From a virus (Duplodnaviria; Heunggongvirae; Uroviricota; Caudoviricetes), in the IMG/VR virus record IMGVR_UViG_3300029086_000082: a DNA stretch of 12,190 bases, one strand, 5' to 3'. Positions 1 through 9,570 of this stretch are shown here, one piece after another (position 1 is the stretch's first letter; each line of letters opens with the position of its first letter). A program made the position numbers and the translations under genes. The notes beneath the pieces are model-generated. The model had not been told where the DNA came from. It ran no database searches and was given only the letters and a program-made list of their open reading frames with translations.

Positions 1-603
1 ATGAATAAAGCCGTATTAAATAACGAACTCATTGCCATAAAAGCGGGAGACATTATCATTTATAATTATGATGGTGAAACGCGTGAATATATTTCTACAT
101 CAACTGAATATCTCGCTGTCGGCGTCGGTATCCCGGCATGTTCTTGTTTGGATGCACCAGGTACACATAAAGCTGGTTATGCAATCTGTCGCTCTGTAGA
201 TTTAAATTCATGGGAATATGTGCCAGATCATCGTGGTGAAATCGTCTATAGCACCGAAACAGGAGAATCGAAAAAAATCACAGCTCCGGGTGATTATCCT
301 GAAAATACAACCACTATCGCCCCGTTAACGCCATACGATAAATGGAATGGTGAGAAATGGGTGACAGATACCGAGGCACAGCACGGCGCAGCAGTAGATG
401 CAGCAGAAGCACTGCGCCAGTCGCTGATTCATACTGCAATGGCCTCCATCAGTCTGATTCAACTGAAATTACAGGCCGGACGGAATCTGACGCAGGCAGA
501 AACAACCCGCCTTAACGCTGTGCTGGATTACATTGACGCGGTGACGGCAACAGATACCAGCACCGCGCCGGATGTCATCTGGCCTGAACTGCCGGAGGCG
601 TAG
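1..603 (+). CDS. tfa: Tail fibre assembly protein (Tfa/gpG/U-like chaperone), plus-orientation copy
   Basis: 200-aa ORF starting at the window's first base; C-terminal ...APDVIWPELPEA motif typical of Tfa proteins. Its 3' end overlaps a second, convergent tfa by 29 bp. Confidence 0.75.
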   Translation: MNKAVLNNELIAIKAGDIIIYNYDGETREYISTSTEYLAVGVGIPACSCLDAPGTHKAGYAICRSVDLNSWEYVPDHRGEIVYSTETGESKKITAPGDYPENTTTIAPLTPYDKWNGEKWVTDTEAQHGAAVDAAEALRQSLIHTAMASISLIQLKLQAGRNLTQAETTRLNAVLDYIDAVTATDTSTAPDVIWPELPEA

Positions 604-1018
604 GCCATTCAATATCTGGCGCACCGGAAGTATCGATCAGCTCCAGTGCGTCCAGATAATCCAGCCACAAATTATATTGCGCCAGTTCATCATCTTTCAG
701 ACGACCAATAGCGGCTTTACCGGGCCATTGCTTACTGTTCATGTATTCGTTGGCCTGGTTAATTAGTAGCTGTCTTTCTGATTCAGTAATTTCAATAAGC
801 TCTTCATGCGTGGGTGGAGGAATATCTGCCCACGCAGGCATCCCATCATCTCCGGCAATACGGATTTTTCCTTGTGGCGGTTCAGCCATAAACTCACTGA
901 TAATATTTTGATTCACCTCCTTTGCATCTGATAAATCCCATCCCTCTGATTTATATTTATCAATCATATCCACAGGGAAAAAAGCATTATTCCTTGCGCT
1001 ATAAACATATTCGTTCAT
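575..1018 (-). CDS. tfa: Tail fibre assembly protein, alternative copy in inverted orientation
   Basis: Minus-strand ORF with Tfa-like N-terminus (MNEYVYSARNNAFFP...) and C-terminal APDIEWPTPP motif. ATG at 1018-1016 is preceded by AGGGTGA; the ORF track's longer start at 1027 is a GTG. It sits 11 nt downstream of the minus-strand fibre C-terminal ORF. Confidence 0.75.
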   Translation of the reverse strand: MNEYVYSARNNAFFPVDMIDKYKSEGWDLSDAKEVNQNIISEFMAEPPQGKIRIAGDDGMPAWADIPPPTHEELIEITESERQLLINQANEYMNSKQWPGKAAIGRLKDDELAQYNLWLDYLDALELIDTSGAPDIEWPTPPAVQAR

Positions 1019-1038
1019 ATAAATCACCCTGAATAAAA

Positions 1039-1424
1039 TTACTCACCAACAGCCCACCAACTGTAATTCATCGATACTGTGGAACTGGTTGATGCAGTTC
1101 TGTAAGCGGAATTAAAACCGGTTAATGTTGGGCCTTCTGCGGTCATCACGAATCCCCGCCCAGCACCTAAAGGCGCACCACCATCACCAGAATGAGTAAG
1201 CATGGCGCAGTCCACTTTTTTAGGAAAAGGGATGCTGAATGTAATTCTCATTGTTTGCGTCGATAATGTCGGCGTAACCGCACCACGACCATATTGCAGG
1301 ATTTTCCCGTTGGGTAATTTCATCCATCCATCACCACTGGCAAAAGAGGCCATGTCCGGTATCTGATTTTCCCCTGTCCCCACATCCCGTTTTGCCGCTT
1401 CTCCCAAACCAACGTTTATGAAAA
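1039..1424 (-). CDS. Alternative tail-fibre C-terminal (receptor-binding) variable domain, promoterless; expressed only after inversion fuses it to the constant fibre 5' part
   Basis: Minus-strand ORF, Gly/Ser/Thr-rich (..HSGDGGAPLGAGRGF..), directly upstream of a tfa on the same strand. The ORF reads through the crossover site (residues IFINVGLGE), so the N-terminal MMPVSHYLC of the track ORF is probably read-through, not a real start. Confidence 0.6.
1399..1424. repeat. Invertase crossover site (hix/gix/pix-like), right boundary of the invertible segment
   Basis: TTCTCCCAAACC-AA-CGTTTATGAAAA: two imperfect 12-bp inverted half-sites around a central AA dinucleotide with the AAACC..GGTTT-type core, 55 bp upstream of the invertase start. 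Confidence 0.6.
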
Positions 1425-1479
1425 TGCAGAGATAATGGCTAACTGGCATCATCCCCGGTTTTTATTCAGGGGGTTGATC

Positions 1480-2046
1480 ATGCTAATTGGCTATGTACGC
1501 GTGTCAACAAATGACCAGAACACCGATTTGCAACGTAATGCACTGAACTGCGCGGGATGTGAGCGGATTTTTGAGGACAAAATCAGTGGCACTAAGTCCG
1601 ACAGACCGGGGCTTAAAAAACTGCTCAGGACACTATCGGCAGGTGACACACTGGTTGTCTGGAAGCTGGACAGGTTGGGGCGCAGTATGCGGCATCTTGT
1701 TACGCTGATAGAAGAGTTGCGCCAGCGCGGCGTGAATTTCCGAAGCCTGACTGACAGTATTGATACCAGTACCCCAATGGGCCGTTTCTTTTTTCATGTC
1801 ATGGGTGCCCTGGCTGAAATGGAACGCGAACTGATAGTTGAACGTACCAGGGCAGGGCTGGCTGCAGCTCGTGCTAAAGGCAGAGTAGGTGGACGCCGTC
1901 CTAAGTTGACCACCGAACAGTGGGCACAGATTGGGCGTTTACTTGAGGCCGGAGAATCAAGACAGCGTATTGCACTGATTTTTGATGTAGGCGTTTCTAC
2001 TATTTATAGAAAATTTCCGGCAAATAAGAGCAATGAATCTCCCTGA
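1480..2046 (+). CDS. Site-specific DNA invertase, serine recombinase of the Gin/Pin/Hin/Cin family
   Basis: Starts MLIGYVRVSTNDQ (catalytic Ser motif) and has the conserved core VVWKLDRLGRSMRHL...SLTDSIDTSTPMGRFFFHVMGALAEMERELIVERT plus a C-terminal HTH (IALIFDVGVSTIYRKF). AGGGGG lies upstream of the ATG at 1480; the track start at 1435 adds 15 non-conserved residues. Confidence 0.9.
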   Translation: MLIGYVRVSTNDQNTDLQRNALNCAGCERIFEDKISGTKSDRPGLKKLLRTLSAGDTLVVWKLDRLGRSMRHLVTLIEELRQRGVNFRSLTDSIDTSTPMGRFFFHVMGALAEMERELIVERTRAGLAAARAKGRVGGRRPKLTTEQWAQIGRLLEAGESRQRIALIFDVGVSTIYRKFPANKSNESP

Positions 2047-2188: not shown

Positions 2189-3361
2189 ATGGCTCAGGAT
2201 TACCACCACGGGGTGCGCGTTGTTGAAGTCAACGAAGGCACCCGATCCATTACCACGGTGAGCACCGCCATCGTGGGTATGGTCTGCACGGGCGATGATG
2301 CCGATGCAAAAATGTTTCCTCTTAATAAACCCGTGCTGATCACTGATGTGCTGACTGCCAGCGGTAAAGCGGGTGAGTCCGGCACGTTGGCCAGTTCGCT
2401 GGATGCCATTTCTGACCAGGCAAAACCCGTGACCGTTGTTGTGCGTGTGCCGCAGGGTGAAACGGAAGAAGAAACCACGACCAATATCATCGGCGCAGTG
2501 ACCGCTGAAGGTAAAAAAACTGGCATGAAAGCCCTGTTATCTGCACAGGCACAGCTCGGCGTTAAACCGCGCATTCTTGGCGTGCCAGGTCACGATAACA
2601 AAGCCGTTGCTACTGAGTTGCTGAGTGTGGCGCAAAGCCTGCGTGGGTTTGCCTACCTGTCAGCATATGGCTGCAAGACGGTACAGGAGGCGATCACTTA
2701 CCGTGAAAACTTCAGCCAGCGCGAAGGAATGCTGATCTGGCCTGACTTTACTGGCTGGGACACGGTGCTGAATGCCGAAGCAACGGCTTATGCCACCGCC
2801 CGTGCACTTGGTCTGCGCGCCAAAATTGACGAGCAGACCGGATGGCACAAAAGCCTGTCCAACGTGGGCGTGAACGGTGTCACCGGAATTTCTGCTGATG
2901 TGTTCTGGGATCTGCAGGACCCGGCAACCGATGCAGGTCTGCTGAACCAGAACGACGTCACCACGCTTGTGCGTAAAGACGGTTTCCGCTTCTGGGGTTC
3001 CCGCAGCCTGAGTGATGACCCGCTCTTTGCCTTCGAAAACTACACCCGCACGGCGCAGGTGCTCATGGACACGATGGCAGAAGCACACATGTGGGCGGTG
3101 GATAAACCGCTTAACCCGTCGCTGGCCCGCGACATTATCGAAGGTATCCGCGCCAAAATACGCAGCCTGGTCAGTCAGGGCTATCTCATTGGTGGTGATT
3201 GCTGGCTGGATGAGTCGGTGAACGACAAAGACACGTTGAAAGCCGGAAAACTCACCATCGACTATGACTACACGCCAGTGCCGCCACTTGAAAATCTGAT
3301 GCTGCGCCAGCGCATCACCGATCAGTACCTGGTGAATTTTGCCAGCCAGGTCAGCGCGTAA
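2189..3361 (+). CDS. FI: Contractile tail sheath protein (P2 gpFI homologue)
   Basis: 390 aa with P2 FI-like motifs ([19 protein letters not shown]..., ...[22 protein letters not shown]...); AGGAGG 7 nt upstream of the ATG. Confidence 0.95.
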
Positions 3362-3370
3362 GGGGACAAC

Positions 3371-3886
3371 ATGGCTTTACCACGCAAATTAAAACATCTG
3401 AACCTGTTTAACGACGGGAACAACTGGCAGGGGATCGTAGAGTCGCTGACGCTGCCGAAATTCACCCGCAAATATGAGAAGTATCGCGGCGGCGGAATGC
3501 CGGGGGCGGTGGATGTGGATCTGGGGCTTGATGACAGTGCTCTGGACACAGAATTTTCCATTGGTGGTACTGAACTGCTGCTGTTTAAGCAGATGGGCAA
3601 AGCCACTGTGGATGGCATCCAGTTGCGCTTTACCGGCTCTATCCAGCGTGACGATACCGGGGAAGTGCAGGCTGTGGAGCTTGTGGTGCGTGGACGTCAC
3701 AAAGAAGTGGATTCCGGCGAGTGGAAGACGGGCGAAAGCAACACCACCAAAGTGACCAGTACCAACAGCTACGCGAAGCTGACTATTAATGGTGAGGTGC
3801 TCTATGAAGTGGACCTTATCAACATGGTGGAAATTGTGGACGGTGTGGACCTGATGGAAGCGCACCGCAACGCCCTCGGCCTCTGA
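3371..3886 (+). CDS. FII: Tail tube protein (P2 gpFII homologue)
   Basis: 171 aa beginning MALPRKLKHLNLFNDG..., immediately downstream of FI; P2 FII-like length and sequence. Confidence 0.95.
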   Translation: MALPRKLKHLNLFNDGNNWQGIVESLTLPKFTRKYEKYRGGGMPGAVDVDLGLDDSALDTEFSIGGTELLLFKQMGKATVDGIQLRFTGSIQRDDTGEVQAVELVVRGRHKEVDSGEWKTGESNTTKVTSTNSYAKLTINGEVLYEVDLINMVEIVDGVDLMEAHRNALGL

Positions 3887-4243: not shown

Positions 4244-4377
4244 CGGTTGACGATCTGGTGGCAGATATCGCCACCATTTTTCACTGGCCGCCATCCGTTA
4301 CAGACGTTATGCCGCTGACCGAAGTGCTGGAATGGCGGTATAAAGCAATTCAGAGAAGCGGGGCCAACGATGAGTGA
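3941..4377 (+). CDS. E+E': gpE+E' fusion chaperone made by programmed -1 ribosomal frameshift (slip at 4198-4204)
   Basis: Heptamer T-TTT-TTG at 4198-4204 in the E frame. The -1 frame stays open from there to TGA at 4375-4377 (...FHWPPSVTDVMPLTEVLEWRYKAIQRSGANDE), overlapping the T start; analogous to P2 E/E' and lambda G/GT. Confidence 0.7.
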
Positions 4378-7300
4378 TAATAACCTGCGCCTGCAGGTCA
4401 TTCTTAATGCGGTTGACAAACTCACCCGCCCATTCCGTGCTGCACAGGCCAGCTCGAAAGAGCTGGCTGGCGCAATCAGAAACTCCCGTGACGCATTAAA
4501 GCAACTCAATCAGGCGGGTAACAGCCTGGAAAAATTTCGCAAGCTGCAGGCCGATAACAAGAAGTTAGGCGACAGGCTGAACTATGCCAGACAGAAGGCC
4601 AATTTGCTTAGCTCTGAGCTGGAGGCGATGGAACAACCATCACAACGGCACCTTGTGGCTTTAGGTCGGCAAACGCTGGCAGTCCAACGCCTGGAAGAAC
4701 AACAAAAATATTTGCAGAAGCAAACGGCGCTTGTGCGTGCAGAACTGTACCGGGCGGGAATTTCTGCGAAAGACGATGCGGGAGCAACCGCCCGTTTAGC
4801 CCGTGAAACATCACGTTATAACCAGGAACTTTCGAAACAGGAGACGCGGCTGAAGCGACTGGGGGAAGCTCAGCGCAGGATGAATGCAGCGCGTGCCAGT
4901 TATGCCCGTTCGCTGGAGGTGCGTGATCGTATTGCAGGTGCCGGAGCCACTACCACGGCTGCAGGGCTGGCAATGGGCGCGCCAGTGATGGCGGCAGTAA
5001 AAAGCTATACCAGCATGGAAGATGCCATGAAAGGTGTGGCAAAGCAGGTCAATGGTCTGCGTGACGATAATGGCAACCGCACTGCACGTTTTTATGAAAT
5101 GCAGGATGCCATCAAGGCTGCCAGCGAACAGTTGCCGATGGAAAACGGTACGGTGGACTTCGCTGCACTGGTTGAAGGTGGTGCGCGTATGAACGTCGCA
5201 AACCCTGACGACAGCTGGGAAGACCAGAAACGTGACCTGCTGGCCTTCGCCAGTACGGCGGCAAAGGCGGCAACAGCCTTTGAGCTGCCAGCGGATGAAC
5301 TGTCAGAAAGTCTGGGGAAAATCGCCCAGCTCTACAAAATCCCTACCCGCAATATTGAACAGCTCGGCGATGCGCTGAACTATCTGGATGATAACGCCAT
5401 GTCGAAAGGGGCAGACATCATTGATGTGATGCAACGTCTGGGCGGTGTGGCTGACCGTCTGGATTATCGTAAAGCGGCGGCGCTGGGTTCCACCTTCCTG
5501 ACACTGGGCGCTGCGCCAGAGGTTGCAGCCAGTGCAGCAAACGCGATGGTGCGTGAATTGTCCATTGCCACCATGCAAAGCAAGAGTTTCTTTGAAGGGA
5601 TGAATCTGCTGAAACTCAATCCTGAAGTGATTGAAAAGCAGATGACGAAGGATGCGATGGGAACTATCCAGCGTGTGCTGGAGAAGGTGAACGCACTGCC
5701 GCAGGACAAGCGTCTGTCTGCCATGACCATGTTGTTTGGTAAAGAGTTTGGCGATGACGCGGCGAAACTGGCAAACAACCTGCCGGAACTACAGCGCCAG
5801 CTAAAACTGACTGCGGGCAATGATGCGCTCGGTTCCATGCAGAAAGAATCCGACATCAACAAAGACTCACTTTCTGCGCAGTGGTTGCTGGTCAAAACCG
5901 GAGCGCAGAACACCTTCAGCAGCCTGGGCGAAACGCTGCGCCAGCCGCTGATGGATATTCTGTACACGGTGAAAAGCATTACGGGGGCGTTGCGCCGCTG
6001 GGTGGAAGCTAACCCAGAACTGACAGGCACACTGATGAAAGTAGCGGCTGTTGTGGCTGCGGTTACCGTAGGCCTCGGCACCTTAGCGGTGGCGCTGGCT
6101 GCAGTGCTGGGGCCGCTGGCAGTGATCCGTCTGGGATTCTCTGTGCTGGGTATCAAAACGTTACCTTCCGTTACGGCAGCAGTAACTCGAACCAGCAGCG
6201 CGTTGTCCTGGCTGGCTGGCGCACCACTGGCACTGCTGCGACGCGGGCTTGCTTCATCGGGCAACGCCGCAGGCTTACTTACTGCTCCGTTGTCGTCTTT
6301 GCGCCGCACGGCATCACTGACGGGAAATGTCCTGAAAACTGTAGCAGGTGCGCCGGTTGCACTGTTGCGGTCTGGATTATCCGGTTTACGTGCGGTTGCT
6401 GTGATGTTTATGAATCCACTGGCAGCACTACGCGACGGGCTGGCTGCCGCAGGCACGGTGCTGCGAGTACTGGCATCCGGTCCGCTGGCGATGTTGCGCG
6501 TTGCCCTGTATGCCGTATCTGGTCTGTTAGGTGCTCTGCTTAGTCCGATAGGTCTTGTGGTTACTGCACTGGCGGGTGTGGCACTGGTTGTCTGGAAATA
6601 CTGGCAACCCATCACCGCATTTCTCGGTGGCGTGGTGGAAGGATTCAAAGCGGCGGCAGGTCCCATCAGTGCAGCGTTCGAACCGCTTAAGCCTGTGTTC
6701 CAGTGGATTGGCGACAAAGTGCAGGCGCTGTGGGGCTGGTTTACTGATCTGCTGACGCCCGTTAAGTCGACCTCTGCCGAACTGCAGAGCGCAGCGGCAA
6801 TGGGGCGACGATTCGGGGAGGTACTGGTGGAAGGGCTGAATATGGTTATGCATCCGCTGGACTCCCTGAAATCTGGCGTTTCCTGGTTGCTGGATAAACT
6901 CGGCATTGTCAGTAAAGAGGCTGCAAAGGCGAAACTGCCGGAAAGCGTGACGCGTCAGCAACCTGCGACGGTGAATGCAGACGGTAAAGTGATGATGCCA
7001 TCGGGTGGTTTTCCGTCATGGGGATATGGCTTTGCGGGGATGTATGACAGCGGCGGCTATATCCCGCGCGGGCAGTTTGGCATCGTCGGTGAAAACGGGC
7101 CAGAAATTGTTAACGGCCCGGCAAACGTGACCAGCCGGAGAAATACAGCTGCACTGGCTGCCGTTGTCGCCGGAATGATGGGTGTTGCTGCCGCGCCAGC
7201 AGAGCTTCCACCGTTGCATCCTTTGGCGCTTCCCGCGAAAGGCGGTGAAGCGATGGTGAGTCGTGCAGCTACTGTGCCGCCCATTTACCGGATTGAAGCA

Positions 7301-7447
7301 CCGACGCAGATCATCATTCAGACGCAGCCAGGACAAAGTGCGCAGGATATTGCGCGGGAGGTGGCACGCCAGCTTGATGAACGTGAACGCAGGCTGAAGG
7401 CAAAAGCCAGGAGTAACTACAGCGATCAGGGGGGATACGACGCATGA
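4370..7447 (+). CDS. T: Tail tape-measure protein (P2 gpT homologue)
   Basis: 1025 aa, between the chaperone and U. Coiled-coil-like N-terminal region, a central Ala/Leu-rich repeated hydrophobic region and a Gly-rich C-terminus. Its stop overlaps the U start (ATGA). Confidence 0.95.
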   Translation: MSDNNLRLQVILNAVDKLTRPFRAAQASSKELAGAIRNSRDALKQLNQAGNSLEKFRKLQADNKKLGDRLNYARQKANLLSSELEAMEQPSQRHLVALGRQTLAVQRLEEQQKYLQKQTALVRAELYRAGISAKDDAGATARLARETSRYNQELSKQETRLKRLGEAQRRMNAARASYARSLEVRDRIAGAGATTTAAGLAMGAPVMAAVKSYTSMEDAMKGVAKQVNGLRDDNGNRTARFYEMQDAIKAASEQLPMENGTVDFAALVEGGARMNVANPDDSWEDQKRDLLAFASTAAKAATAFELPADELSESLGKIAQLYKIPTRNIEQLGDALNYLDDNAMSKGADIIDVMQRLGGVADRLDYRKAAALGSTFLTLGAAPEVAASAANAMVRELSIATMQSKSFFEGMNLLKLNPEVIEKQMTKDAMGTIQRVLEKVNALPQDKRLSAMTMLFGKEFGDDAAKLANNLPELQRQLKLTAGNDALGSMQKESDINKDSLSAQWLLVKTGAQNTFSSLGETLRQPLMDILYTVKSITGALRRWVEANPELTGTLMKVAAVVAAVTVGLGTLAVALAAVLGPLAVIRLGFSVLGIKTLPSVTAAVTRTSSALSWLAGAPLALLRRGLASSGNAAGLLTAPLSSLRRTASLTGNVLKTVAGAPVALLRSGLSGLRAVAVMFMNPLAALRDGLAAAGTVLRVLASGPLAMLRVALYAVSGLLGALLSPIGLVVTALAGVALVVWKYWQPITAFLGGVVEGFKAAAGPISAAFEPLKPVFQWIGDKVQALWGWFTDLLTPVKSTSAELQSAAAMGRRFGEVLVEGLNMVMHPLDSLKSGVSWLLDKLGIVSKEAAKAKLPESVTRQQPATVNADGKVMMPSGGFPSWGYGFAGMYDSGGYIPRGQFGIVGENGPEIVNGPANVTSRRNTAALAAVVAGMMGVAAAPAELPPLHPLALPAKGGEAMVSRAATVPPIYRIEAPTQIIIQTQPGQSAQDIAREVARQLDERERRLKAKARSNYSDQGGYDA

Positions 7448-7929
7448 TGATGGTGCTGGGATTGTACGTGTTTATGCTGCGCACCGTTCCGTATCAGGAA
7501 CTGCAGTATCAACGCAGCTGGCGACATGCGGCAAACAGCCGGGTAAACCGACGTCCGTCCACGCAGTTTCTGGGACCGGACAACGACATGCTGACGCTTT
7601 CTGGTGTTCTTATGCCGGAGATAACGGGCGGCAGGCTGTCGTTGCTGGCTCTGGAGCAGATGGCAGAACAGGGAAAAGCATGGCCCCTGATTGAAGGCAG
7701 CGGCACGATTTACGGCATGTATGTGATTGAGGGACTGAATCTGACTAAAACGGAGTTTTTCCGCGACGGTATGCCGCGCCGGATTGAGTTCACCCTGTCG
7801 CTCAAACGGGTGGATGAATCCCTGTCCGATATGTTCGGTGATCTCAGTGCGCAGCTGAATAATCTGCAGGACACGGCAACGCCTGCCTTAAGCGATATCA
7901 GTAAAACGGTGGGAGGGCTGCTGTCGTGA
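7444..7929 (+). CDS. U: Tail protein (P2 gpU homologue)
   Basis: 161 aa, translationally coupled to T (ATGA) and to D (GTGA); position and size match P2 gpU. Confidence 0.9.
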   Translation: MMMVLGLYVFMLRTVPYQELQYQRSWRHAANSRVNRRPSTQFLGPDNDMLTLSGVLMPEITGGRLSLLALEQMAEQGKAWPLIEGSGTIYGMYVIEGLNLTKTEFFRDGMPRRIEFTLSLKRVDESLSDMFGDLSAQLNNLQDTATPALSDISKTVGGLLS

Positions 7930-9026
7930 ATTTCAGCTCTGAACTGCTTAACAAAGGCAACAAAACTCCCGCATTCAGCATCAGTATTGAGGACAGGGAT
8001 ATCACTACTGTGCTGGATAACCGCCTGATGAGTCTGACGCTGACGGACAATCGGGGCTTTGAAGCGGACCAGCTTGATCTGGAGCTGGACGACGCCGACG
8101 GAAAAATTGTGCTGCCGCGCCGTGGTGCGGTCATCACGCTGGCGCTGGGCTGGAAGGGGCAGCCGCTTTTCCCGAAAGGGGCATTCACGGTGGACGAGAT
8201 TGAACACACCGGCGCACCGGATCGCCTGACTATCCGGGCGCGAAGTGCTGATTTTAGGGAAACGCTGAATACCCGCCGTGAAAAATCGTGGCACAAGACC
8301 ACTGTCGGGGAAGTGGTGAAGGAAATAGCCGCGCGTCATAAGCTGAAGATGGCACTGGGTAAAGACCTGTCGGATAAGCCCGTGGAGCATATAGACCAGA
8401 CTAATGAGAGTGACGGCAGTTTTCTGATGCGGCTGGCGCGCCAGTACGGTGCCATCGCGTCGGTGAAAAATGGCAATCTGTTATTCATCCGGCAGGGACA
8501 GGGCAAAAGCGCCAGCGGTAAACCACTGCCGGTGATCTCAATCACACGTAAGGACGGCGACAGTCACCGCTTTACCCTGGCAGATCGCGGAGCCTACACG
8601 GGCGTAATTGCCAGTTGGTTGCATACCCGCGAACCCGCGAAGAAAGAAAGCACCACGGTGAAGCGTAAGCGCAGGACTAAGAAGCAGAAGAAAGAGCCGG
8701 AAGCGAAGCAGGGCGATTACCTGGTGGGTACGGATGAAAACGTGCTGGTACTTAATCGCACTTATGCCAACCGGAGCAACGCCGAACGGGCAGCGAAAAT
8801 GCAGTGGGAACGCCTGCAACGCGGCGTTGCATCATTCTCGCTACAACTGGCGGAAGGGCGGGCAGATCTCTACACAGAAATGCCTGTGAAGGTCAGTGGC
8901 TTTAAACAGCCGATAGATGATGCGGAATGGACCATTACGACTCTGACGCATACCGTCAGCCCCGATAACGGTTTTACAACCAGTCTGGAGCTTGAAGTGA
9001 GGATTGATGATTTCGAAATGGAATGA
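7926..9026 (+). CDS. D: Tail protein / late control protein D (P2 gpD homologue)
   Basis: 366 aa with a GTG start overlapping the U stop; GPD-family-like sequence (..LTLTDNRGFEADQLDLELDD..); last gene of the tail operon before ogr. Confidence 0.9.
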   Translation: MNFSSELLNKGNKTPAFSISIEDRDITTVLDNRLMSLTLTDNRGFEADQLDLELDDADGKIVLPRRGAVITLALGWKGQPLFPKGAFTVDEIEHTGAPDRLTIRARSADFRETLNTRREKSWHKTTVGEVVKEIAARHKLKMALGKDLSDKPVEHIDQTNESDGSFLMRLARQYGAIASVKNGNLLFIRQGQGKSASGKPLPVISITRKDGDSHRFTLADRGAYTGVIASWLHTREPAKKESTTVKRKRRTKKQKKEPEAKQGDYLVGTDENVLVLNRTYANRSNAERAAKMQWERLQRGVASFSLQLAEGRADLYTEMPVKVSGFKQPIDDAEWTITTLTHTVSPDNGFTTSLELEVRIDDFEME

Positions 9027-9116: not shown

Positions 9117-9335
9117 ATGATGATTTGCCCACTGTGTGGAAGTGCCGCCCATACTCGCAGCAGTTTTCAGGTATCTTCATTGACCAAAGAGCGTTACAAC
9201 CAGTGCCAGAACATTAACTGCAGCCATACTTTTGTTACCCATGAAACTTTTGTTCGTTCGATTGCAACGCCAAAAGAGTCAAATCCGGTTCAGCCGCATC
9301 CAATGAAATCAGGACAGGTGGCGCTCTCTCTTTGA
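9117..9335 (+). CDS. ogr: Ogr-type zinc-finger late-gene transcriptional activator
   Basis: 72 aa from ATG 9117 (GGGGAGAG 9 nt upstream). C-X2-C...C-X4-C zinc-finger spacing (CPLCGSAAH...CQNINCSHTF) as in P2 Ogr. The track's upstream start at 9084 lacks a Shine-Dalgarno sequence and adds non-conserved residues. Confidence 0.9.
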   Translation: MMICPLCGSAAHTRSSFQVSSLTKERYNQCQNINCSHTFVTHETFVRSIATPKESNPVQPHPMKSGQVALSL

Positions 9336-9412: not shown

Positions 9413-9458
9413 AACAAAAAACCCATCAACCTTGAACCGAAATGGCGGGGTTGATGGG
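9413..9458 (-). terminator. Candidate rho-independent terminator downstream of ybjL
   Basis: 10-bp stem CCCATCAACC / GGTTGATGGG (9422-9431 / 9449-9458) followed on the minus strand by TTTTTTGTT. It lies about 115 nt past the ybjL stop and the loop is large (17 nt), so confidence is moderate. Confidence 0.45.
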
Positions 9459-9570
9459 CTCCACAAAATGGGGACATCAAAGAAAAGCAGTGGCACTAAT
9501 TAAGACTGATGCCCTGCGGAAAAGTTCTGCGGTTGTGCAAAAAAATTTCATTTTCAGGGCAACTTCAGTT

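What the first reader, a model, noticed from the sequence alone, without database searches (positions are those of the whole stretch)
1399..1424. Crossover site lies inside coding sequence and encodes a fixed junction peptide
The 26-bp site TTCTCCCAAACC-AA-CGTTTATGAAAA has the AAACC-NN-GGTTT-like core of hix/gix sites. Read on the minus strand in the frame of the alternative fibre ORF, it encodes IFINVGLGE. That is what an in-frame fusion of the constant fibre part to either variable part after inversion would require.
Basis: seen in the sequence. Interest (0 to 1): 0.45.

Follow-up and report, generated by a model that had tools for sequence, protein, structure and literature searches.

The report
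Known pixR tail-fibre inversion site

Summary
Window 1399-1424 reads TTCTCCCAAACC-AA-CGTTTATGAAAA, occurs once, and reads IFINVGLGE on the minus strand in the frame of ORF 1039-1452. It is 26/26 identical to the published pixR site of the E. coli e14 Pin system. It lies 55 nt upstream of an intact Pin/Gin-type serine invertase (87% identical to PinE).

The partner site is outside the window. In every P2-like relative with the fibre gene intact, 14 in all, it lies inside tail-fibre gene H, inverted and in frame. There it reads L(A/T)YLGLGE, not IFINVGLGE. Only the inner half-site (GLGE) belongs to the invertible segment and joins the fibre. IFINV is the outer half-site, in the spacer before the invertase gene.

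Two prophages with identical tape-measure proteins at the same chromosomal site carry the segment in opposite orientations. Inverting one in silico at the central dinucleotides reproduces the other's 473-aa fibre protein exactly.

The mechanism is the classic Mu G / P1 C / e14 P "gene splicing by inversion". This is already known and of low interest. One caveat: a 2025 paper claims that the e14 ORF running through pixR (StfE2) is a functional protein.

The parts
1399..1424 (.). 26-bp crossover site of the Pin/Din invertase family (pixR-type). Inner half-site 1399-1410 (inside the segment, read as GLGE on the minus strand), central dinucleotide AA 1411-1412 (the exchange point in this family), outer half-site 1413-1424 (outside the segment).
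   Evidence: Sequence read. 26/26 identical to published pixR (PMC3241671 Table 3). Byte-identical to the site next to pinE in E. coli K-12 e14 (L011 4606-4631). Homology to relatives carrying other cassettes starts at 1398, and homology to e14-like elements ends at 1417.
1039..1410 (-). Alternative, currently unfused tail-fibre C-terminal cassette (Sv'-type), GLGEAAKRDVG...WWAVGE plus stop, with a Gp53-like_C domain.
   Evidence: Pfam PF21882, E 2.3e-13. The same type of cassette is fused to the 354-aa constant part of fibre protein H in L020/L022. In-silico inversion fuses the window's own cassette in frame.
1413..1452 (-). Upstream extension of the minus-strand ORF (MMPVSHYLCIFINV) through the outer half-site into the site-invertase spacer. 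It is not part of the fibre. It is the analogue of the N-terminus of e14 'StfE/StfE2'.
   Evidence: Translation. The ATGATG is conserved, but the following residues vary freely among relatives (MMPVSHYLC, MMPVSCYLC, MMPFARYFC, MMPVSRNRC...). It never appears in fused H proteins. The StfE2 claim is in PMC12529663.
575..1018 (-). Tail-fibre assembly chaperone (tfa') paired with the unfused Gp53-like cassette.
   Evidence: Pfam Caudo_TAP, E 5e-31. Annotated as tail fiber assembly protein in relatives.
1..603 (+). Tail-fibre assembly chaperone (tfa, TfaE-like) paired with the currently fused Collar-type cassette, whose coding sequence lies upstream of the window.
   Evidence: Pfam Caudo_TAP, E 2.9e-31. 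In L023 it directly follows H (317-1801), whose C-terminus is the Collar cassette.
1..1411 (.). Right-hand three quarters of the invertible segment. The full segment is 1846 bp between crossover points in L023, so its left end is about 435 nt upstream of window base 1.
   Evidence: Window 1-1415 is present in inverted orientation in L014, L020 and L022, between unchanged flanks.
1480..2046 (+). Serine DNA invertase of the Pin/Gin/Cin/Hin group, 188 aa, with the catalytic-serine motif YVRVSTNDQ.
   Evidence: Pfam Resolvase E 2.2e-53 and HTH_7 E 1.4e-15. 87% identical to K-12 PinE. Gin crystal structure 3uj3, E 7.9e-93. The exact protein is listed in 9692 blocks of the assembly collection.
1498..1569 (.). 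Probable Fis-dependent recombinational enhancer inside the 5' end of the invertase gene. Inferred by position and homology only.
   Evidence: P1 record NC_005856 annotates the 'enhancer of Cin-mediated C-segment inversion' at cin nt 19-90. The aligned stretch of the window is 56/72 identical to P1 cin, 52/72 to Mu gin and 63/72 to pinE.

Best explanation
Window 1399-1424 is the invertase-proximal recombination site (pixR-type) of a Pin-family serine invertase in a P2-like E. coli prophage inserted beside rybB/ybjL. Its partner site lies in inverted orientation inside tail-fibre gene H, about 1.85 kb to the left and just outside the window. By analogy with Hin, Gin, Cin and Pin (established knowledge), invertase dimers bind both sites and synapse with a Fis-bound enhancer inside the invertase gene. 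They cut at the central AA/TT dinucleotide and rotate, which inverts the segment. The segment carries two back-to-back cassettes. Each is a fibre C-terminus beginning GLGE (Collar-type or Gp53-like-type) followed by its own assembly chaperone. The constant 350 residues of H end ...AGLLAYL. The crossover falls in codon positions 2-3 of that last Leu, so either cassette is joined in frame and the junction always reads LAYL|GLGE. This switches the receptor-binding tip, and presumably the host range. At the window's site only the inner 12 bp (GLGE) are fibre coding sequence. The outer 12 bp (read as FINV) are the invertase's other half-site, in the spacer before the invertase gene. Shown here: the identity of the site, the invertase, the cassettes, the in-frame geometry, and natural occurrence of both orientations. 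Inferred: catalysis at the central dinucleotide, Fis/enhancer dependence, and the host-range consequence.
For: The site is 26/26 identical to published pixR and to the K-12 e14 site beside pinE. An intact invertase starts 55 nt away, 87% identical to PinE and strongly similar to Gin. The partner site TTCTC(G/A)CATACC-TT-GGTTTGGGAGA(A/G) lies within H in all 14 P2-like relatives with H intact, inverted relative to the window-type site. L024, whose contig starts just upstream, has the site too. L020/L022 and L023 carry a tape-measure protein identical to the window's and have the same insertion site. Their flanks are 99.9% or more identical to the window from 1398 onward. They carry the segment in opposite orientations. 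Their H proteins share 354 residues ending LAYLGLGE, then continue GSALPVG... (Collar) or AAKRDVG... (Gp53-like). In-silico inversion of L023 at the central dinucleotides gives an H protein with 0/473 mismatches to the real L020 H, and both site sequences stay unchanged. Among complete E. coli genomes, the Gp53-site-invertase junction is found at 80% or more coverage in 278 and the Collar-site-invertase junction in 860. Inversion in P2-like E. coli prophages and in e14 has been shown experimentally (PMC4272514; PMC12529663).
Against: The partner site and constant fibre part of the window's own genome were not seen. Four exact-protein look-ups found only near-identical contigs. No experiment bears on this particular copy. 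The enhancer is assigned by homology in a region that is also constrained as coding sequence. No plus-strand promoter for the invertase passed the scan's thresholds.
Confidence: 0.93

Rival explanations
1. One reading: both crossover sites encode the same nine residues, IFINVGLGE, which form the fixed junction peptide of the fibre in both orientations.
For: The minus-strand reading IFINVGLGE is real. In phage Mu the two gix sites are identical and both read IQNLGLQE, so the idea is reasonable for this family.
Against: In every relative with an intact fibre gene, the fibre-gene site reads L(A/T)YLGLGE or LENLGLGE, never (I)F(I/L)NV. Fused H proteins in both orientations read ...LLAYLGLGE.... 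IFINV lies outside the segment, so inversion cannot move it.
Confidence: 0.02
2. Dual use, not exclusive of the best explanation. The ORF that starts at the ATGATG at 1452/1449 and runs through the whole site into the unfused cassette (136-137 aa) is itself translated. It would give a small stand-alone receptor-binding-domain protein, as claimed for e14 StfE2, which blocks adsorption of phage T2. IFINVGLGE would then be real protein sequence.
For: The ORF is open from a conserved ATGATG in 12 of 12 distinct Pin-type flank variants. A sigma-70-like match (TTGACA-16-TAGCAT, 10/12) on the minus strand at 1507-1480 points into it. PMC12529663 reports that plasmid-expressed StfE2 (same architecture, gp53-like C-terminus) reduces T2 adsorption, and that the protection needs the inversion.
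Against: The residues between the ATG and the site vary by non-conservative changes (H/C/R, Y/N/C, L/R/F), as expected for non-coding spacer. GGGG abuts the ATG, leaving no properly spaced Shine-Dalgarno. The promoter-like hexamers are the complements of the invertase's conserved ATG-CTA and GTG-TCA-ACA codons, and the scan found no more sites than in shuffles (2 against 1.9). The paper's text has no hit for 'Western' or 'mass spectrometry', and its one 'promoter' hit concerns a cloning vector, so native StfE2 expression was not shown in the text searched. The window's cassette is only 26% identical to the K-12 StfE2 domain. L004 has a stop codon in the equivalent reading.
Confidence: 0.15
3. 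The site is a frozen relic: the sequence is retained but the segment no longer inverts in this prophage.
For: Only one orientation is visible in the window. K-12 stfE is annotated as a pseudogene in e14, which shows that such loci can decay.
Against: The invertase ORF is intact and its exact protein is extremely widespread. The site is identical to functional pixR. Near-identical prophages differ in segment orientation. Some draft contigs begin at or inside the segment, a pattern that would fit mixed orientation (L024, L025).
Confidence: 0.05

Closest known systems
Pin/pix P-segment inversion of the E. coli K-12 e14 element (Plasterk and van de Putte 1985, as cited in PMC4272514 and PMC3241671)
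   Same: The invertase-proximal site is identical over 26/26 bases (pixR). The invertase is 87% identical. The layout is the same: fibre constant part, site, cassette plus tfa, tfa' plus cassette on the other strand, site, invertase. The inner half-site GGTTTGGGAGAA (GLGE) is the same. The window's nt 1-1412 are 100% identical to the segment of some e14-like elements (L006-L009).
   Different: The host element is a P2-like myovirus prophage (gene H constant part with a Phage_tail_fib domain, followed downstream by FI/FII/T/U/D/ogr), not the lambdoid e14 element with a Mu-type baseplate. The fibre-gene partner site is TTCTCGCATACC... (LAYL) rather than pixL CTCTCGAAAACC... (LENL).
Gin/gix G-segment of phage Mu and Cin/cix C-segment of phage P1
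   Same: Same mechanism: gene splicing by inversion, with a constant Sc part outside and Sv/U and Sv'/U' inside. The crossover is inside the fibre coding sequence, in the same reading frame. The junction motif is x-x-(N/Y)-L-G-L-x-E: Mu IQNLGLQE, P1 IQYLGLRE. An enhancer lies in the 5' end of the invertase gene.
   Different: The site matches gix at 17/26 and the cix sites at 19/26. In Mu the two sites are identical, so both encode the same peptide; here and in P1 the outer halves differ. In P1 cin reads towards the segment; here, as in Mu and e14, it reads away.
Invertible tail-fibre loci of P2-like prophages in E. coli E2348/69 (Goldberg et al. 2014, PMC4272514); Fin of Salmonella Fels-2
   Same: P2-like prophage, with the invertase next to alternative fibre C-termini. 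Coexisting orientations were shown experimentally in clonal cultures. Fin is described as a Fels-2 invertase that also inverts the H segment.
   Different: No direct sequence comparison with those particular loci was made here. One EPEC locus has three repeats (shufflon-like), whereas relatives of the window have two sites (L012 has a third).
Hin/hix flagellar phase variation of Salmonella
   Same: Same invertase family and same 26-bp site architecture (20/26 identical to hixL), with central AA.
   Different: As far as I recall, Hin inversion flips a promoter rather than splicing a coding sequence, so there is no junction peptide.

Membership tests
Din (Hin/Gin/Cin/Pin) invertase recombination sites | 26-bp imperfect dyad: two 12-bp half-sites (TTC---AAAC- / -GTTT---GAA) around a 2-bp core | tested here: met
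   TTCTCCCAAACC AA CGTTTATGAAAA. Half-site symmetry is 8/12. It fits the 'dix' consensus given in PMC3241671.
Din (Hin/Gin/Cin/Pin) invertase recombination sites | Sequence match to a characterised site | tested here: met
   26/26 to pixR, 21/26 to pixL, 20/26 to hixL, 19/26 to cixL and cixR, 17/26 to gix. Identical to K-12 e14 L011 4606-4631.
Din (Hin/Gin/Cin/Pin) invertase recombination sites | Adjacent small serine recombinase with a catalytic domain and a C-terminal HTH | tested here: met
   Window 1480-2046: Resolvase plus HTH_7, YVRVSTNDQ motif, 87% identical to PinE, Gin structure E 7.9e-93.
Din (Hin/Gin/Cin/Pin) invertase recombination sites | Partner site in inverted orientation with a matching central dinucleotide | tested here: met
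   Not present in the window. Present in the P2-like relatives with an intact fibre gene and in all 9 e14-type loci, central TT opposite AA, 1846 bp away in L023.
Din (Hin/Gin/Cin/Pin) invertase recombination sites | Fis-dependent enhancer in cis | tested here: inconclusive
   Window 1498-1569 aligns with the enhancer annotated in P1 cin (56/72 identical). The stretch is also conserved coding sequence, and Fis binding was not tested.
Din (Hin/Gin/Cin/Pin) invertase recombination sites | The segment between the sites actually inverts | tested here: met
   Near-identical prophages carry the segment in opposite orientations with unchanged site sequences, and simulated inversion reproduces the real protein. 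This is population-level evidence, not evidence from the source strain.
Tail-fibre gene splicing by inversion (Mu G / P1 C / e14 P type) | Constant N-terminal fibre part outside the segment; two opposed C-terminal cassettes inside, each with its own chaperone | tested here: met
   In the window: tfa (+), tfa' (-) and the Gp53-like cassette (-). The constant part and the Collar cassette were seen in L023, L001 and L026.
Tail-fibre gene splicing by inversion (Mu G / P1 C / e14 P type) | Crossover point in the same codon phase at both sites, so both fusions are in frame | tested here: met
   The central TT occupies codon positions 2-3 (CTT Leu at the fibre site, GTT Val at the invertase site). 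H is 494 aa before and 473 aa after inversion, with no frameshift.
Tail-fibre gene splicing by inversion (Mu G / P1 C / e14 P type) | Switch of host range or receptor specificity | not testable with these tools
   Inferred from the different receptor-binding domains (Collar versus Gp53-like_C) and from Mu/P1 precedent.

The most novel reading that the evidence does not exclude
The outer half-site and the short spacer before the invertase gene would double as the start of a separately translated small protein: MMPVSHYLCIFINVGLGE plus whichever cassette is parked there. This is an analogue of e14 StfE2. The 'off' cassette of a P2-like prophage would then not be silent, but would supply a free receptor-binding domain that blocks adsorption of other phages, and inversion would toggle two products at once.
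Probability: 0.12. Interest if true: 0.45.

Novelty: already known. Interest (0 to 1): 0.08.

Why it matters
It matters little beyond correct annotation. The site, the enzyme family and the in-frame splicing logic were worked out in the 1980s for Mu, P1 and e14. Inversion in P2-like E. coli prophages has been shown experimentally, and this invertase is among the commonest prophage proteins in E. coli assemblies. There are two practical points. First, the 136-aa 'phage tail protein' or 'gp53-like domain-containing protein' that annotation pipelines call next to such invertases is the parked cassette plus a fortuitous or at least unproven N-terminal extension. Second, genome comparisons and assemblies should expect both orientations and contig breaks at this locus.

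Tried and rejected
1. Finding the window's own upstream DNA. Exact-protein look-ups with Tfa, the invertase, the tape measure and the 136-aa ORF gave many close relatives, the best being L023 at 99.3% over all 12190 nt. None was an identical contig. No complete E. coli genome matched nt 1-2100 above 96.0%.

2. The idea that the site is the exact breakpoint of a cassette swap between an e14-like element and the P2-like prophage. Window 1-1412 is 100% identical to L006, and 1398 onward is 99.99% identical to L020. However, the last base that distinguishes the two segment types is at 1225, and L026 shows finer-scale mosaicism inside the segment. Ordinary homologous recombination explains this equally well, so the idea was dropped as a claim.

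3. An assembly chimera was considered as an explanation for the same mosaic. The source assembly was not available to test it. Contigs with the same 136-aa ORF in a P2-like context (L026-L028) argue against it.

4. A plus-strand sigma-70 promoter for the invertase overlapping the site, as I recall for gin and cin. The scan found none at its thresholds.

5. Neither the review looked up as PMC4384473 nor the e14 genome analysis (PMC331406) is held in the library. Statements about them rest on citations in other papers or on general knowledge.

6. The single scans of genome contigs and metagenome contigs were not used. The first holds one genome per species and was unlikely to hold the source strain.

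Full report
OBSERVATION

Window 1399-1424 reads TTCTCCCAAACCAACGTTTATGAAAA.
- It is unique in the window even with three mismatches allowed; shuffles give 0.00.
- The core AAACCNNSGTTT occurs once, against 0.04 expected.
- The minus-strand ORF 1039-1452 translates as MMPVSHYLCIFINVGLGEAAKRDVGTGENQ...WWAVGE.

CONTEXT IN THE WINDOW

The window is the tail end of a P2-like prophage. Gene calls come from Pfam, from annotated relatives and from precomputed hits on identical proteins.
- tfa chaperone: 1-603 (+).
- Second chaperone, tfa': 575-1018 (-).
- Gp53-like_C fibre cassette: 1039-1410 (-).
- The site: 1399-1424.
- Serine invertase: 1480-2046 (+).
- P2 tail genes: FI sheath 2189-3361, FII tube 3371-3886, E and E', tape measure 4370-7447, U, D 7926-9026, ogr 9117-9335.
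- Host DNA follows: RybB sRNA 9413-9491, then ybjL, ybjM and grxA.

The invertase has Resolvase and HTH_7 domains. It is 87% identical to K-12 PinE. It matches the Gin crystal structure 3uj3 at E 7.9e-93.

IDENTITY OF THE SITE

The 26-mer is byte-identical to the site beside pinE in E. coli K-12 e14 (L011 4606-4631). It is also identical to the pixR sequence tabulated for the Din family in PMC3241671. Identity to other family sites is 21/26 for pixL, 20/26 for hixL, 19/26 for cixL and cixR, and 17/26 for gix. The C in place of G in the right half-core (CGTTT) is also seen in pixR and the mix sites.

THE PARTNER SITE

It is not in the window. The window begins at the tfa start codon, downstream of the fused cassette. 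I fetched 28 related loci.

P2-like prophages with the fibre gene intact (L001, L012-L020, L022, L023, L026, L027):
- An inverted partner lies inside fibre gene H.
- It reads TTCTC(G/A)CATACC-TT-GGTTTGGGAGA(A/G), which is L(A/T)YLGLGE in the H frame.
- L002 (H interrupted by IS1), L024 (contig starts 112 nt upstream of the site) and L028 (locus shorter) carry the same site.
- L021 has lost the segment and both sites. L025's contig begins inside the segment.

e14-like elements (L003-L011):
- The partner is pixL, which reads LENLGLGE.

In all of these except L004, the invertase-proximal site reads F(I/L)NVGLGE. L004 has a diverged site there.

The two sites therefore share only the inner half-site (GGTTTGGGAGAA, GLGE) and the complementary central dinucleotide.

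In L023, which is 99.3% identical to the whole window and in the same orientation:
- The partner is at 1353-1378, corresponding to 423-448 nt upstream of window base 1.
- The crossover points are 1846 bp apart.

PROOF OF THE SPLICING GEOMETRY

L020/L022 and L023 are essentially the same prophage.
- They encode a tape-measure protein identical to the window's.
- They have the same insertion site.
- From position 1398 onward their flanks are 99.9% or more identical to the window.
- They carry the segment in opposite orientations.

Their H proteins share the first 354 residues, ending ...AGLLAYLGLGE. They then continue GSALPVGVPVPWP... (Collar domain, 494 aa) or AAKRDVGTGENQ... (Gp53-like_C, 473 aa). 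The cassette parked beside the invertase reads MMPVSHYLCIFINVGLGE plus the other C-terminus in each case.

I inverted L023 in silico at the central dinucleotides.
- Both 26-mers were unchanged.
- The resulting H protein has 0/473 mismatches to the real L020 H.
- The same operation on a hybrid of L023 upstream DNA plus the window fuses the window's own cassette in frame.

The central TT occupies codon positions 2-3: CTT Leu at the fibre site and GTT Val at the invertase site. The true fixed junction is LAYL|GLGE. IFINV is the outer half-site and never leaves the spacer in front of the invertase gene.

Across complete E. coli genomes both junction types are common. The Gp53-site-invertase junction is found in 278 genomes and the Collar-site-invertase junction in 860, each at 80% or more coverage.

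MECHANISM

Shown here:
- a Din-type site beside an intact invertase;
- an inverted partner inside H in relatives;
- two opposed cassette-plus-chaperone modules;
- in-frame exchange;
- both orientations in nature.

Inferred from the established biochemistry of Hin, Gin and Cin:
- binding of invertase dimers to both sites;
- a 2-bp staggered cut at the central dinucleotide and 180-degree subunit rotation;
- dependence on a Fis-bound enhancer.

The P1 record annotates that enhancer at cin nt 19-90. The aligned window stretch, 1498-1569, is 56/72 identical to P1 cin and 63/72 to pinE. Because this is also conserved coding sequence, the enhancer assignment stays inferential. The host-range consequence is inferred from the different receptor-binding domains.

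COMPARISON WITH KNOWN SYSTEMS

The same frame and a similar motif recur in the classical systems.
- The Mu S junction reads FIQNLGLQE, and the parked S' reads IIQNLGLQE.
- The P1 S junction reads VIQYLGLRE, while the cixL side reads ILNLGLRE.

The window is thus a standard member of the Mu G / P1 C / e14 P type of fibre switch, housed in a P2-like prophage. That combination has already been shown experimentally to phase-vary in E. coli E2348/69 (PMC4272514).

A RESIDUAL ALTERNATIVE

PMC12529663 (NAR 2025) treats the e14 ORF that starts in the pin-proximal spacer and runs through pixR as a gene, stfE. It reports that its post-inversion form, StfE2 (13 spacer-and-site residues plus GLGE plus a gp53-like domain), blocks T2 adsorption when expressed from a plasmid. 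The window's ORF 1039-1449 has the same architecture.

In favour:
- A conserved ATGATG in all 12 distinct Pin-type flank variants.
- A minus-strand promoter-like match at 1507-1480.

Against:
- The intervening residues vary non-conservatively.
- There is no properly spaced Shine-Dalgarno sequence.
- The promoter-like hexamers are the complements of the invertase's conserved ATG-CTA and GTG-TCA-ACA codons, and the scan found no more sites than in shuffles.
- A text search of the paper found no Western blot, mass-spectrometry or native-promoter data for StfE2.
- The window's cassette is only 26% identical to the K-12 StfE2 domain.

I rate this at 10-15%.

VERDICT

The site is an exact, already described pixR, and the mechanism is textbook. 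The specific 'nine-residue junction peptide' claim is wrong: four residues, GLGE, come from the segment, and the other four junction residues, LAYL, come from the fibre's constant part. Novelty: already known. Interest: low.

Noticed in passing
window 9413-9491 (-): RybB sRNA gene (Rfam RF00110, 105 bits) lies 78 nt beyond the end of ogr (9335), with its 3' end facing the prophage. This P2-like prophage therefore appears to be inserted beside or at the 3' end of rybB, next to ybjL. The attachment site was not delimited.
   Followed up: no
window 1-1412 compared with L006-L009 and L020: The segment part of the window is 100% identical to the segment of e14-like (Mu-type baseplate) elements. Prophages whose flanks are 99.99% identical to the window (L020, L025) have segments only 94% identical. 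This indicates exchange of cassette alleles between unrelated prophages. The last diagnostic base is at 1225, so the breakpoint cannot be pinned to the site.
   Followed up: partly
window 1480-1507 (-) and 1449-1452: A sigma-70-like match, TTGACA-16-TAGCAT (10/12), on the minus strand inside the first codons of the invertase gene points towards the parked cassette ORF. That ORF's ATGATG start is conserved in all 12 distinct Pin-type flank variants.
   Followed up: partly
window 1027-1038 and 1460-1471; hairpin 1441-1460: A perfect 12-nt inverted repeat, CCCTGAATAAAA / TTTTATTCAGGG. Each arm lies just upstream of a start codon: tfa' on the minus strand and the invertase on the plus strand. The two genes therefore share nearly the same leader sequence. 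A terminator-like hairpin plus T-run overlaps the right arm.
   Followed up: no
L021 (GCA_013065165.1), locus 5014-7111: The same prophage right arm and host flank, but the match to the window begins only at 1474. The invertible segment and both sites are missing. An AIPR-domain gene and P2 gene A sequences lie directly upstream of the invertase, which suggests a deleted or rearranged prophage with an orphan invertase.
   Followed up: no
L012 4538-4563 and 4618-4643: Two same-orientation fibre-side sites lie 80 bp apart (LAYLGLGE and RFYLGLGE), in addition to the invertase-proximal site, with larger, unrelated cassettes. This may be a multi-site, shufflon-like arrangement like p15B Min or the three-repeat EPEC locus.
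   Followed up: no
L024 (contig start 112 nt before the fibre-side site), L025 (contig starts inside the segment): Draft-assembly contigs begin at or inside the invertible segment. This would fit reads of mixed orientation or repeated cassettes breaking the assembly.
   Followed up: no
L004 5553-5578: An e14-like locus whose invertase-proximal site has a diverged outer half (TTCTCCCAAACCAACCTTTCAAATAT). The in-frame reading contains a stop (I*KVGLGE), and the site is paired with a different 187-aa invertase.
   Followed up: no
window 5464-6906 (-): A 480-aa ORF lies antisense within the tape-measure gene. It is probably a spurious product of codon bias and was not examined.
   Followed up: no
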